A DNA stretch of 2,086 nucleotides from Naegleria gruberi (Eukaryota): NCBI GenBank assembly GCA_000004985.1, contig GG739291.1; one strand, written 5' to 3'. Below the pieces are notes generated by a model. That model saw nothing but the letters and a program-made list of their open reading frames with translations, was not told where the DNA came from and searched no databases. This document shows, in pieces, positions 1-2,086 of this stretch; positions within the stretch are counted from its first letter, which is position 1, and every line of letters starts with the position of its first letter. Position numbers and translations under genes: made by a program.

Positions 1-1332
1 TGGCCTTGCACAAATGCACAATTATATAGTCCTTTAGGTGTTTTTGTTTCATCAAATAATGAAGTTTATATATCTGACTGTTTTAATCATAGAATTAGAA
101 AGGTATTACATAATGGAAATATTGTAACAATAGCTGGAAATGGAACACCTGGATTCAGTGGAGATTCTCCATTTGATATTTCACTCTATCCTCATTTCGG
201 AAATAGTAGCTCTTTAACTAGAAGAATAGAATTTCATAGTTTGAAAAAATATTCAAGAGATCAATTATTTGGATTGGAAATTTATGGATTCATGCCACTA
301 ATTGAAAGAATATCAATTCAATTCAGTCAAATTCTGAAAAATGAAAAGATAATTTGGTCAATGAATGCTTCACAACGTGCAATTATTCAAAAACTAATTA
401 ATTCTCTCATATATGATAATAATCAATTGAATTTTACAAAGAATGAACTATTAGATGTATTATTTATTTTAGGATTATTTAAAAATGGCGAATTTATTGA
501 GCTTAAAAGATCATTGACAAGTGATTTTATTAATTCCATTACCTTGAAAGAATTTCCTGCTGAATGGGAAAAAATTGAATCGCTGATCATGACATGCAAA
601 GATTTTGGAAATGAAAATTACATTCTTGAATGCTTGAACAATTTCTGTATTGAATTTGTTGCTGTCAAAATGAAGACCACAGAGGGAAGTGCTGTTTTGT
701 CTTCCCTTCCAATAGTTTTGCGAAATGCTACTGCTTTTTTCCCAAAATTGGTACTTGGTCAACCAACCCCAATCAACATTGAAGAAAAAATTGAAGTTAA
801 TCCACAAACATTAGAATCATTATTTAACGATAAGAAAACAAGTGATATTCAAATCAAAATGGGAGAAGACAAGTATTTATATTGTCACAAAACTGTTTTG
901 AGCACCACTAGTACCTTCTTTGCTGCCCTATTTGAAAGTGGATCATCCTTTAGTGATTTTAATAATGGAATTTTCACACCAGATGAATCAGAAGATTTGG
1001 AATTATTGGAAATTATCATCAAATATTGTTATGGAATTTCATTCGACAATGAAAAAATTTCTGGATTGTTAGACATGGCAATGAAACATGAAATTAAATA
1101 TTTAGTCGATTATTATTGTATTAATTTCACGCTCTCCATTCAAAATTACTTTTCCATTGTATCAACATGTGAACAGTATTTGGATTTACCTGTATTTGAA
1201 GGATTTTTCAAAGAAATTATTAGATTTGGAGTTACCAACAAGAAGCAACTCTTTACTGATTTGAGTGTTCTTTCTAAATTACCTGAAAAAGTTTGGCAGG
1301 TGATGTTCTTGAATTGGGCTCATGATAATTGA
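1..1332 (+). CDS. 5'-partial CDS of an NHL-repeat plus BTB/POZ-domain protein. Frame 1 is open from window position 1 and the stop is TGA at 1330-1332.
   Basis: Seen in sequence: frame 1 has no stop codon from nt 1 to 1329, which is 443 codons in a sequence of about 70% AT. Nt 22-201 translate to LYSPLGVFVSSNNEVYISDCFNHRIRKVLHNGNIVTIAGNGTPGFSGDSPFDISLYPHFG, which fits the NHL-repeat consensus (P.Gvavd..g.iyVaD..NhRIrk....G...tiaG.G..G..gd). Nt about 826-1140 translate to SDIQIKMGEDKYLYCHKTVLSTTSTFFAALFESG...LLDMAMKHEIKYLVDYYCINFTL, a classic BTB/POZ core. The ORF-track start at 241 is TTG, rendered as M under bacterial start rules. There is no in-frame ATG upstream, so the true start lies beyond the left edge or in an upstream exon. 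Confidence 0.8.
   Translation, partial: WPCTNAQLYSPLGVFVSSNNEVYISDCFNHRIRKVLHNGNIVTIAGNGTPGFSGDSPFDISLYPHFGNSSSLTRRIEFHSLKKYSRDQLFGLEIYGFMPLIERISIQFSQILKNEKIIWSMNASQRAIIQKLINSLIYDNNQLNFTKNELLDVLFILGLFKNGEFIELKRSLTSDFINSITLKEFPAEWEKIESLIMTCKDFGNENYILECLNNFCIEFVAVKMKTTEGSAVLSSLPIVLRNATAFFPKLVLGQPTPINIEEKIEVNPQTLESLFNDKKTSDIQIKMGEDKYLYCHKTVLSTTSTFFAALFESGSSFSDFNNGIFTPDESEDLELLEIIIKYCYGISFDNEKISGLLDMAMKHEIKYLVDYYCINFTLSIQNYFSIVSTCEQYLDLPVFEGFFKEIIRFGVTNKKQLFTDLSVLSKLPEKVWQVMFLNWAHDN
22..235 (+). other. NHL-repeat (beta-propeller blade) region: one well-formed blade at about 22-150 followed by a degenerate blade (...YPHFGNSSSLTRRIEF).
   Basis: Motif SDCFNHRIRKV...IVTIAGNGTPGFSGD...LYPHFG read directly in frame 1. 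Assignment to the NHL family (Pfam PF01436-type) rests on motif recognition by eye, not on an HMM search. Confidence 0.6.
808..1140 (+). other. BTB/POZ domain. A short BACK-like helical tail follows at 1141-1329.
   Basis: DIQIKMGEDKYLYCHKTVLSTTSTFFAALFESG matches the BTB beta-strand/helix signature (D..l.v.g..f.aHr.vLaa.S.yF.amf.sg). It is followed by LLEIIIKYCYG...LLDMAMKHEIKYLVDYYC (l.fiYtg.v.l...nv..lL.aA..l.i..L...C). Recognition is by eye. Confidence 0.7.
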
Positions 1333-1384
1333 GCTAATAACTTTAATGTTTATTTTTATTCCTCTTTTAAAAAATTGTGAACTA
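1333..1384. other. 52-bp inter-stop region shared by the two convergent 3' UTRs.
   Basis: The TGA of the plus gene ends at 1332 and the TAA of the minus gene begins at 1385. The region is about 80% AT. The plus strand has no canonical AATAAA here, only the variant AATAAC at 1336-1341. The next plus-strand AATAAA is at 1725-1730, inside the kinase CDS. Confidence 0.5.
1349..1360 (-). terminator. Tandem canonical poly(A) signal AATAAAAATAAA for the kinase gene. It lies 25-38 nt 3' of that gene's stop codon.
   Basis: Plus-strand tttatttttatt at 1349-1360 is AATAAAAATAAA on the minus strand. Its spacing downstream of the TAA at 1385-1387 is typical for a eukaryotic polyadenylation signal. Function is inferred, not demonstrated. 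Confidence 0.4.
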
Positions 1385-2020
1385 TTAGAATTTCAAGTTG
1401 TAAAACACTGGACTATTCGAATCCTGAATATTATTGGTTACACTTGCTGAATTGCCATTATTATTATTATTTGGTGGAAATCTGTCATTGAACTCACCAA
1501 CAACTTGTGAATTATTATTTTGTAAAGTATTAAAAGTATTAATTATTGTAAAATTTGAAGATGATTTTAGTGGAGTTTGAATTCCAGATCTATCTAAAGG
1601 GTTATATCCAATAACAATTGATCTTTTTTCATTAGTTTGAATTGTTTGTAATGTTGGAACTAATTTCCTTTTTTTGGAAGGTTGTTCTTTTTGTTCATTT
1701 TGTAAAATGTTTGCTGTTAATTTCAATAAATGTTTTTGTAATTCCGCAAATGATGGTCTTGATTTTGGATTATATTCCAAACAACTATTTCCTATTCTAA
1801 TAACTTCATTGGCTTGATTGAGTGTTAAACAAGGAAATAATTCCAATAATTCGTTTGTTGAGAGAAAGCAAGTTAATCTTTCATTATTTTCAATGTGTTT
1901 TTGAGAAAATAATTCATACATTGTAACTCCAAAACTGTAAACATCCAATGCCGTGAGAAGATATTCTTTTTGGAAATCTTTCGGTTTGTGTTGCATTCGT
2001 TTTTCATAAATTTCAGGAGC
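1385..2020 (-). CDS. Terminal exon of a protein kinase, TKL-like with Raf/MLK-like spacing. It encodes the C-lobe (APE to subdomain XI) plus a low-complexity C-terminal tail of about 110 residues. The stop is TAA at 1385-1387 on the minus strand.
   Basis: Minus-strand translation from the acceptor: APEIYEKRMQHKPKDFQKEYLLTALDVYSFGVTMYELFS...CLEYNPKSRPSFAELQKHLLKL. This gives APE (subdomain VIII), DVYSFG (subdomain IX) and the conserved Arg of subdomain XI. The ORF-track Met at 1996 (MQHK...) is internal to the kinase domain and is not a start. Confidence 0.85.
   Translation of the reverse strand, partial: APEIYEKRMQHKPKDFQKEYLLTALDVYSFGVTMYELFSQKHIENNERLTCFLSTNELLELFPCLTLNQANEVIRIGNSCLEYNPKSRPSFAELQKHLLKLTANILQNEQKEQPSKKRKLVPTLQTIQTNEKRSIVIGYNPLDRSGIQTPLKSSSNFTIINTFNTLQNNNSQVVGEFNDRFPPNNNNNGNSASVTNNIQDSNSPVFYNLKF
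1457..1471 (-). repeat. (AAT)5 trinucleotide microsatellite encoding an Asn5 run in the kinase tail (PPNNNNNGN).
   Basis: Plus-strand attattattattatt at 1457-1471. On the minus strand it reads in frame as aat x5, flanked by cca cca and ggc aat. Confidence 0.6.
1661..1681 (-). other. SV40-type monopartite NLS-like basic motif PSKKRKL in the kinase C-terminal tail.
   Basis: The reverse complement of 1661-1681 is cct tcc aaa aaa agg aaa tta, translating to PSKKRKL. It matches the K(K/R)X(K/R) consensus and resembles PKKKRKV. Nuclear targeting is inference only. Confidence 0.35.
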
Positions 2021-2067
2021 CTTTAGAAAGTAAATTCTTAGATTGAATTAAATGAGACAAAACTTAC
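2021..2067 (-). other. 47-nt spliceosomal intron, phase 0, GTAAGT...AG.
   Basis: Minus-strand sequence: gtaagttttgtctcatttaattcaatctaagaatttactttctaaag. Without splicing the reading frame hits TAA after 9 codons. With splicing, ...GTFQYM joins APEIYEK..., which restores the near-invariant kinase activation-segment motif GT..YMAPE. Confidence 0.7.
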
Positions 2068-2086
2068 CATGTATTGAAAGGTTCCT
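2068..2086 (-). CDS. 3' end of the upstream kinase exon (partial; it continues beyond the right edge). It encodes ...GTFQYM.
   Basis: Reverse complement of 2068-2085 is GGA ACC TTT CAA TAC ATG, translating to GTFQYM, immediately 5' of the GTAAGT donor. The rest of the kinase (the N-lobe, HRD and DFG motifs) must lie to the right of the window. Confidence 0.6.

What the first reader, a model, noticed from the sequence alone, without database searches (positions are those of the whole stretch)
1..1332. NHL beta-propeller repeats and a C-terminal BTB/POZ domain in one continuous reading frame: an unusual propeller-then-BTB architecture
Frame 1 is open for 443 codons and carries an NHL-type repeat at its 5' end (SDCFNHRIRKV...TIAGNG...GD...LYPHFG) and a textbook BTB core at its 3' end (DIQIKMGEDKYLYCHKTVLSTTSTFFAALFESG). 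By established knowledge, NHL propellers usually sit C-terminal to RING/B-box/coiled-coil modules (TRIM-NHL proteins) or in bacterial and secreted proteins. BTB domains usually sit N-terminal to a substrate-binding module (Kelch, MATH or zinc finger) in Cul3 adaptors. The order here is reversed: the propeller is N-terminal and the BTB plus truncated BACK is C-terminal. The partner is an NHL propeller rather than a Kelch propeller. By inference, this would be a Cul3-type substrate adaptor in which an NHL propeller replaces Kelch. The intervening region of about 190 residues (nt 241-807) has no domain I can recognise. The gene continues beyond the left edge of the window, so more blades, or other domains, probably lie upstream.
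Basis: partly seen in the sequence, partly recalled or inferred. Interest (0 to 1): 0.55.

Follow-up and report, generated by a model that had tools for sequence, protein, structure and literature searches.

The report
Naegleria NHL-propeller double-BTB adaptor gene
The window holds the last two-thirds of a Naegleria gruberi gene whose protein joins an NHL beta-propeller to two BTB-type domains (one hidden, one obvious), most likely a substrate receptor for a cullin-3 ubiquitin ligase; it is real but an uncharacterised variant of a well-known design, not a new kind of system.

Summary
Frame 1 is open for 443 codons (nt 1-1329, stop at 1330-1332). Pfam finds one NHL repeat (aa 8-34, 21.4 bits against a cutoff of 20) and a BTB domain (aa 271-372, 44.6 bits against 20.5).

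The window is a complete 2,086-bp Naegleria gruberi scaffold. A 409-aa partial "predicted protein" is 100% identical to it. Full-length paralogs of about 700-760 aa have six NHL units at a strict 56-aa period, then the same middle region, BTB and helical tail. About 282 residues are therefore missing upstream.

The canonical BTB carries the Cul3-binding phiX(D/E) motif (F317-S318-D319). Its tail aligns with the SPOP/KBTBD2 3-box and BACK start.

The propeller-then-BTB order is unusual only relative to KLHL proteins. LZTR1, RCBTB1 and MATH-BTB proteins share it.

The double-BTB cassette is expanded in Naegleria and also occurs fused to ankyrin repeats. A Cul3 adaptor function is inferred, not shown.

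Verdict: a new variant of a known kind, of modest interest.

The parts
1..171 (+). Last (sixth) NHL beta-propeller unit, 56-aa period. The gene runs off the left end of the scaffold inside the repeat array.
   Evidence: Pfam NHL at aa 8-34, 21.4 bits. The unit is 39-77% identical to individual blades of paralogs, and its motif position matches unit 6 of the six-unit paralogs.
160..201 (+). Conserved junction motif GDSPFD...YPHFG between the propeller and the helical region.
   Evidence: P, H and G of YPHxG are invariant in alignment A1, including the 30%-identical environmental homolog P0019.
235..801 (+). Middle all-helical domain (aa 79-267), probably a cryptic, degenerate BTB/BACK-like domain. 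The core that aligns with BTB is aa 90-242 (nt 268-726).
811..1116 (+). Canonical BTB/POZ domain (aa 271-372).
949..957 (+). F317-S318-D319, a candidate phiX(D/E) Cul3-binding motif in the alpha3-beta4 loop.
   Evidence: Aligns with SPOP M233-E234-E235 in A3. The D aligns with the E of KBTBD2 L-S-E. Motif definition from PMC6484134. About 25 of 40 cassette members that reach these columns keep phi-X-D/E.
1117..1329 (+). Helical C-terminal tail (aa 373-443): 3-box-like plus a short BACK-like end.
1330..1332 (+). TGA stop codon of the NHL-BTB gene.

Best explanation
The window is a small Naegleria gruberi scaffold. It carries the 3' 1,329 nt of an intron-free gene for a protein of about 725 aa.

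The protein has five parts, in order:
- A six-bladed NHL beta-propeller. Only the last blade is in the window.
- A conserved junction motif.
- A degenerate, mostly helical BTB/BACK-like domain.
- A canonical BTB domain carrying a phiX(D/E) motif.
- A short 3-box/BACK-like helical tail.

Most likely mechanism (inferred): the protein is a substrate receptor of a cullin-3 RING ubiquitin ligase. The canonical BTB plus its tail would dimerise and dock the N-terminal domain of Cul3. The cryptic BTB-like domain would act as a rigid spacer or a second oligomerisation module. The NHL propeller would capture the substrate for ubiquitylation.

The gene belongs to a Naegleria-lineage expansion. In that expansion the same double-BTB cassette is fused to NHL propellers, ankyrin repeats or other N-terminal regions, which suggests swappable substrate-recognition heads.

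What is shown: the reading frame, the domain content, the family and its architecture. What is inferred: Cul3 binding, dimerisation and substrate recruitment.
For: - Open frame and Pfam NHL and BTB hits.
- 100% identity to an N. gruberi partial protein on a 2,086-bp contig. Full-length paralogs of 679-762 aa are colinear with the window protein.
- Six NHL units at a 56-aa period in full-length members.
- Single-exon genes in N. lovaniensis and on an environmental contig.
- The exhaustive profile search returned 84 representatives at E<1e-10. At least 50 of the sequences examined span the middle region into the BTB. N-terminal regions are NHL, ankyrin or unknown.
- The Cul3 motif F317-S318-D319 aligns with SPOP M233-E-E235, and A309 aligns with SPOP A227. 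The motif definition and its role are from PMC6484134.
- The tail aligns to the KBTBD2 and SPOP 3-box/BACK regions.
- The best-matching solved structures are Cul3-bound adaptors: A55, KBTBD2, SPOP and KLHL3.
- Nine cullin-family genes are reported in Naegleria (PMC9928731).
Against: - There is no experimental or co-occurrence evidence for Cul3 binding. A Cul3 ortholog in Naegleria was not verified here.
- The SPOP D278 contact is not conserved; it aligns with M in A3.
- Pfam BACK is not detected.
- Several cassette members, notably the ankyrin subgroup, lack the phiX(D/E) loop.
- Many BTB proteins do not bind Cul3.
- The cryptic-BTB call rests on profile and fold similarity in the grey zone. 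Foldseek E-values are not significant, and hhalign against the family's own BTB domains gives only 27.6%.
Confidence: 0.6

Rival explanations
1. The protein is not a ubiquitin-ligase adaptor. The BTB domains serve only as oligomerisation modules, and the NHL propeller binds RNA or another ligand, as in the TRIM-NHL regulators Brat and LIN-41. The result would be a multivalent scaffold or post-transcriptional regulator.
For: BTB is a general protein-interaction fold. BCL6, PLZF and CP190, which are transcription or chromatin BTB proteins, are among the best sequence matches. One Cul3-contact residue is not conserved. Part of the cassette family lacks the phiX(D/E) loop. RNA binding by the NHL domains of TRIM-NHL proteins is from my own knowledge.
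Against: The window protein and most NHL-type members keep phiX(D/E) and the alanine equivalent to SPOP A227. A 3-box-like tail follows the BTB, as in Cul3 adaptors. The best structural matches are Cul3-bound adaptors. The modular pairing of a variable recognition head with a conserved BTB cassette is the hallmark of CRL3 receptor expansions.
Confidence: 0.25
2. The continuous frame is an artefact. It would be a chimeric or misassembled scaffold, a pseudogene, or two adjacent genes read through.
For: The scaffold is only 2,086 bp and ends inside a repeat array. The public gene model begins at V35 and lacks the NHL part.
Against: There are no stops or frameshifts in 443 codons. Colinear 46-67% identity to at least 6 full-length paralogs runs across the NHL-to-helical junction, including the invariant YPHxG motif. 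The same architecture sits in a single exon in N. lovaniensis and on environmental contigs.
Confidence: 0.03
3. The family is part of a host-virus exchange. The double-BTB cassette, with NHL or ankyrin heads, would be shared between Naegleria and giant viruses and would act in infection or defence, for example by hijacking or guarding the host Cul3. This reading is compatible with a Cul3-adaptor mechanism.
For: Two environmental contigs of 76 kb and 179 kb come from one sample and have equal coverage. They show dense intron-less ORFs, mostly ORFans, plus LRR, F-box, ankyrin and BTB multigene families. Together they carry four cassette members, including an NHL-BTB protein. Poxvirus BTB-Kelch A55 is a precedent for viral Cul3 subversion (PMC6484134).
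Against: No viral hallmark gene was seen. The mimivirus early-promoter motif is not enriched. There are no relatives in IMG/VR. The contigs could belong to a compact protist. The window itself is an ordinary N. gruberi locus next to an intron-containing kinase gene.
Confidence: 0.1

Closest known systems
[quoted passage not shown]
   Same: An N-terminal six-bladed beta-propeller is followed by two BTB-type domains with 3-box/BACK helices. The propeller-then-BTB order is the same, and the role is presumed to be a Cul3 substrate receptor (PMC8154269).
   Different: The propeller here is NHL, not Kelch. The first BTB is so degenerate that Pfam misses it and most of its beta-sheet appears lost. 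The BACK parts are short. No sequence relationship beyond generic BTB was seen, and LZTR1 is not among the PDB profile hits. This is an analog, not an ortholog.
SPOP / MATH-BTB (BPM) proteins
   Same: The substrate-binding domain is N-terminal, followed by BTB, 3-box and a short BACK-like C-terminal domain. The window's BTB plus tail aligns to SPOP 179-360, including phiX(D/E). Lineage-specific expansions are typical of the family (own knowledge). MATH precedes BTB in P0182 and P0196.
   Different: The head is MATH rather than NHL. SPOP has no intervening cryptic BTB. SPOP D278 is not conserved here.
RCBTB1/2 (RCC1-like propeller plus two BTB domains)
   Same: A beta-propeller combined with two BTB domains, and a link to Cul3 (PMC4974088).
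   Different: RCBTB1 has a seven-bladed RCC1-like propeller rather than a six-bladed NHL one. Its domains are recognisable by standard profiles.
BTB-BACK-Kelch proteins (KLHL/KBTBD; poxvirus A55)
   Same: These give the best sequence and fold matches for the BTB and tail (KBTBD2, A55, KLHL3). The logic of a propeller as substrate receptor is the same. A55 uses the Asp variant of the motif, F-I-D.
   Different: The domain order is opposite (BTB first, Kelch last). They have a full BACK domain and a Kelch rather than an NHL propeller.
TRIM-NHL proteins (Brat, LIN-41/TRIM71, TRIM2/3/32)
   Same: A six-bladed NHL propeller paired with an E3-ligase-related module (own knowledge).
   Different: In TRIM-NHL proteins the NHL is C-terminal and the ligase module is RING/B-box/coiled-coil. 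Full-length paralogs here begin directly with the NHL array and have no RING or B-box.

Membership tests
BTB/POZ domain (Pfam PF00651) | Profile score above the Pfam gathering threshold | tested here: met
   44.6 bits against a cutoff of 20.5, E 1.8e-11, aa 271-372, profile positions 1-102 of 110.
BTB/POZ domain (Pfam PF00651) | BTB fold (three-stranded sheet plus helical cluster) | tested here: inconclusive
NHL-repeat beta-propeller (Pfam PF01436) | NHL repeat profile match | tested here: met
   21.4 bits against a cutoff of 20 for the single unit in the window. Paralogs score 74.9-143.7 bits.
NHL-repeat beta-propeller (Pfam PF01436) | Six repeats closing a propeller | not testable with these tools
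   The scaffold ends inside the array. Seven full-length relatives have six units at a 55-56-aa period.
Cul3-RING ligase substrate adaptor (BTB type) | phiX(D/E) motif in the alpha3-beta4 loop of the BTB | tested here: met
   F317-S318-D319 aligns with SPOP M233-E234-E235, and A309 aligns with SPOP A227. Motif definition from PMC6484134. This is by alignment only.
Cul3-RING ligase substrate adaptor (BTB type) | 3-box helical pair immediately after the BTB | tested here: inconclusive
   The tail is helical and aligns with KBTBD2 to residue 180 and with the SPOP 3-box/C-terminal domain. Pfam BACK is not detected.
Cul3-RING ligase substrate adaptor (BTB type) | Physical binding to the Cul3 N-terminal domain | not testable with these tools
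   No multimer prediction or experiment was available.
Cul3-RING ligase substrate adaptor (BTB type) | A Cul3 ortholog in the same organism | not tested
   Literature only: nine cullin-family genes in Naegleria (PMC9928731). No paper pairs Naegleria with Cul3.
LZTR1-type (propeller plus two BTB-BACK) | Two BTB-type domains after the propeller | tested here: inconclusive
LZTR1-type (propeller plus two BTB-BACK) | Kelch-repeat propeller | tested here: not met
   Pfam finds NHL and TEN_NHL but no Kelch in the window protein or in the full-length relatives.
TRIM-NHL | N-terminal RING / B-box / coiled-coil before the NHL | tested here: not met
   Full-length paralogs start with the NHL array within the first 10-30 residues, and Pfam finds no RING or B-box. 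This could not be tested on the truncated window gene itself.
BTB-BACK-Kelch (KLHL/KBTBD) | BTB at the N-terminus, full BACK, C-terminal Kelch propeller | tested here: not met
   The order is propeller first. There is no Kelch, and PF07707 is not detected.

The most novel reading that the evidence does not exclude
NHL-(cryptic BTB)-BTB proteins would form a previously undescribed class of Cul3 receptors. In this class a conserved double-BTB chassis is fused to interchangeable heads (NHL propellers homogenised by repeat turnover, or ankyrin repeats). The class would be expanded in Naegleria and shared with giant-virus-like genomes, which would point to a role in host-virus conflict comparable to poxvirus BTB-Kelch or nematode MATH-BTB expansions.
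Probability: 0.15. Interest if true: 0.6.

Novelty: new variant of a known kind. Interest (0 to 1): 0.35.

Why it matters
If the inference holds, Naegleria has its own family of cullin-3 substrate receptors that use NHL propellers. I found no description of this pairing in the searchable literature. The family would add a further independent case of propeller-plus-double-BTB design alongside LZTR1 and RCBTB.

The cryptic BTB shows that standard domain scans under-count BTB domains in divergent protists.

The genus includes the pathogen N. fowleri, which has at least one cassette member (P0277, ankyrin subgroup). A lineage-specific ligase-receptor family there is of some practical interest.

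The possible sharing of the cassette with giant-virus-like contigs is the only aspect that could make this more than a catalogue entry.

Tried and rejected
- A second word-indexed protein search, using only the non-NHL part, returned just 4 short N. gruberi proteins and missed the known full-length paralogs.
- The same tool run with the middle-domain alignment returned nothing.
- The AFDB Foldseek library was unavailable.
- Foldseek against the PDB gave no significant hit for the middle domain.
- Pfam at E<=10 on 34 middle-domain sequences gave no consistent family. One member hit BACK_BPM_SPOP at E 0.0014.
- The N. gruberi paralog loci could not be fetched because P0001, P0003 and P0009 are not in the contig index. 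Extension of the scaffold and tandem-array context in N. gruberi therefore remain unchecked.
- IMG/VR scans with the cassette alignment, P0271 and P0143 found no relatives.
- The mimivirus early promoter AAAATTGA is not enriched on the virus-like contig.
- Literature searches for Naegleria with BTB and NHL, and for Naegleria with Cul3, found nothing relevant.
- I considered a bacterial origin of the NHL array, because all non-Naegleria top hits are bacterial. I set this aside as untestable: the query holds a single 56-aa repeat and the database is dominated by bacteria.

Full report
**Observation**

The 2,086-nt window is about 29% G+C. Frame 1 is open from nt 1 to 1329 and stops at TGA 1330-1332. 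By my own arithmetic from that composition, about 8% of random codons would be stops, so 443 open codons has a chance probability near 5e-17.

Pfam finds a BTB/POZ domain at aa 271-372 (44.6 bits, cutoff 20.5, E 1.8e-11). It also finds one NHL repeat at aa 8-34 (21.4 bits, cutoff 20). It reports no BACK domain and nothing between aa 60 and 270, even at E<=1.

**Origin of the sequence**

A 409-aa "predicted protein, partial [Naegleria gruberi]" (P0003) is 100% identical to the window protein. It sits on a contig of exactly 2,086 bp, so the window is a whole unplaced N. gruberi scaffold. That public model begins at V35 and is annotated with BTB only, so the NHL unit is not part of the deposited annotation.

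The minus strand carries the 3' end of a protein kinase gene. Pfam PK_Tyr_Ser-Thr scores 34.1 bits. A 47-nt GT...AG intron at nt 2067-2021 joins GTFQYM to APEIYE. This fits a eukaryotic chromosome.

**Whole-gene architecture**

Six full-length N. gruberi paralogs (P0001, P0002, P0004, P0005, P0006, P0007; 679-762 aa) are 46-67% identical to the window protein over 87-100% of its length. Pfam scores their NHL arrays up to 143.7 bits and finds a C-terminal BTB.

In these paralogs, in N. lovaniensis P0121 and in the environmental homolog P0019, the NHL motif recurs six times at a 55-56-aa period. The single unit in the window matches the position of unit 6. About 282 residues (roughly 0.85 kb) are therefore missing upstream, and the full protein would be about 725 aa.

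Blades within one paralog are 54-82% identical on average and up to 100% identical. This plausibly explains why the assembly broke inside the array; that explanation is an inference.

The junction GDSPFD...YPHxG is conserved even in the 30%-identical P0019. The N. lovaniensis gene for P0121 is one uninterrupted 2,214-nt exon among ordinary eukaryotic genes such as a Sec7 GEF and an RGS protein. The gene for P0019 is one 2,175-nt ORF. NHL and BTB therefore belong to one gene, and the artefact explanation is very unlikely.

**The "unrecognised" middle region**

I ran an exhaustive profile search with the non-NHL part, using alignment A1. It found 2,268 proteins at E<=1e-3, 84 at E<=1e-10 and 24 at E<=1e-30. 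At least 50 of the sequences examined match from the middle region into the BTB.

Their N-terminal parts differ:
- NHL propellers: P0121, P0123, P0132, P0142/P0271, P0134
- Ankyrin repeats: P0129, P0133, P0143
- Regions with no Pfam match: P0125, P0126, P0146, P0157, P0162

Every member that carries an organism name is from N. gruberi, N. lovaniensis or N. fowleri. The rest are metagenomic.

Modelled alone with a 34-sequence alignment (A2), window aa 79-267 folds with mean pLDDT 93.7 and pTM 0.89 into 11 helices.

The evidence that this domain is BTB-like is as follows:
- Foldseek gives no significant E-value (best 0.9), but most of its 39 listed chains are again BTB proteins.
- hhalign of A2 against 88 BTB domains from proteins outside the cassette family gives Prob 95.5%, E 1.5e-8, over 134 colinear columns. 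With the closer sequences removed it still gives 95.2%.
- Controls are clean. The reversed alignment gives 0.4%, and eight block-shuffled versions give at most 19%.
- Against the family's own BTB domains the probability is only 27.6%, but the register is the same.

The aligned segments follow the BTB order: the strand before "HK", then helices A1 to A5, then the 3-box/BACK helices. I conclude with about 70% confidence that the middle region is a degenerate BTB/BACK-like domain that has lost most of its sheet. The protein is then propeller plus double BTB.

**The canonical BTB and its tail**

The best solved-structure sequence match is KBTBD2 residues 18-180, which cover the BTB and the start of BACK. 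It spans profile positions 215-385 (E 1.1e-6). BCL6, KEAP1 and SPOP follow.

The canonical Cul3-binding determinant is a phiX(D/E) motif in the alpha3-beta4 loop, together with a small hydrophobic residue in alpha3 (PMC6484134). In a MAFFT alignment with that segment, the window's F317-S318-D319 aligns with SPOP M233-E234-E235, and A309 aligns with A227. The HMMER alignment to KBTBD2 likewise pairs D319 with the E of L-S-E. About 25 of the 40 or so cassette members that reach these columns keep phi-X-D/E, whereas the ankyrin subgroup has a shortened loop. SPOP D278 is not conserved here; KLHL3 also lacks an Asp at that position.

**Mechanism**

Shown: the reading frame, the domain composition, the family and its modularity.

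Inferred from established knowledge of CRL3 adaptors: the BTB plus its 3-box-like tail dimerises and binds the Cul3 N-terminal domain. The NHL propeller recruits substrates. The cryptic BTB acts as a spacer or a second oligomerisation module, as proposed for the two BTB-BACK units of LZTR1 (PMC8154269).

Naegleria is reported to have nine cullin-family genes (PMC9928731). I could not verify a Cul3 ortholog.

The main rival is that BTB serves only for oligomerisation and NHL binds RNA or another ligand. It cannot be excluded, and I give it about 0.25.

**Comparison with known families**

The order "propeller, then BTB" is unusual only in comparison with KLHL/KBTBD proteins. [quoted passage not shown] RCBTB1 combines a seven-bladed RCC1-like propeller with two BTB domains. 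MATH precedes BTB in SPOP-type proteins.

What differs here:
- The NHL type of propeller.
- The degenerate first BTB.
- The short BACK parts.
- The restriction of named members to Naegleria.

The protein is not a TRIM-NHL protein, because it has no RING or B-box. It is not a BTB-Kelch protein, and there is no evidence that it is an LZTR1 ortholog.

I found no paper describing an NHL-BTB architecture or these Naegleria genes. The proteins are already in public databases as "predicted protein" or "BTB domain-containing protein".

**Verdict**

The finding is real. It is a new variant of a known kind of system. The spacer is probably a hidden second BTB. Interest is modest, at 0.35.

The most novel open lead is that four cassette members, including an NHL-BTB protein, lie on two giant-virus-like metagenomic contigs from one sample. 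This remains unresolved.

Noticed in passing
window 1385-2086, minus strand: This is the 3' part of a convergent protein-kinase gene (Pfam PK_Tyr_Ser-Thr 34.1 bits, C-lobe). A 47-nt GT...AG intron at 2067-2021 joins GTFQYM to APEIYE. The protein has a long Asn/Ser-rich C-terminal tail. The CDS ends at nt 1388 and the stop is at 1387-1385.
   Followed up: partly
window 1333-1384: Only 52 nt separate the stop codons of the two convergent genes. Their 3' UTRs and polyadenylation sites must therefore overlap or be extremely short.
   Followed up: no
window 1-102, compared with public model P0003: The deposited partial protein starts at V35 (nt 103), although the frame is open and homologous to NHL blades from nt 1. 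The NHL repeat is therefore missing from the public annotation of this gene.
   Followed up: yes
paralogs P0001, P0004 and others (N-terminal ~335 aa): NHL blades within one protein are far more alike than is usual for propeller blades. Mean identity is 0.54-0.82 and reaches 100% in P0001. This suggests recent unit duplication or gene conversion, and probably explains why this scaffold ends inside the array.
   Followed up: partly
P0012 + P0009 (same 236,320-bp N. gruberi contig), compared with P0005: P0012 is an NHL array only (308 aa). P0009 starts exactly at the YPHIG junction (390 aa). Together they look like one NHL-BTB gene split by the gene model, nearly identical to P0005. P0010 on the same contig is another member, which hints at a local cluster.
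   Followed up: no
L002, L003, L007 (ENA ERZ12289978 NODE_127, 76,395 bp, and NODE_41, 178,699 bp): Both contigs have about 11.2x coverage. The loci checked are about 42% GC. ORFs are densely packed and intron-less, and most have no Pfam match. There are tandem arrays of ~600-aa LRR and F-box-LRR paralogs and a SUMO-like ORF. Four members of the Naegleria-type cassette are present: P0141, P0271 (NHL-BTB), P0162 and P0143 (ankyrin-BTB). The contigs look like a giant virus or a very compact protist. They have no relatives in IMG/VR, and the mimivirus promoter motif is not enriched.
   Followed up: partly
L001 (ENA ERZ27315067 k141_554141, 8,567 bp): The most distant full-length NHL-double-BTB homolog (P0019, 29% identity to the window protein) lies on a 38% GC environmental contig next to an intron-less CDC48 gene. 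It probably comes from another heterolobosean or an unknown protist.
   Followed up: no
one search hit list: After the Naegleria paralogs, every strong match to the NHL unit is bacterial (Spirosoma, Acidobacteriota, Chloroflexi and others, 45-65% identity over one repeat). This could hint at a bacterial-type NHL array in Naegleria, but it may simply reflect database composition.
   Followed up: no
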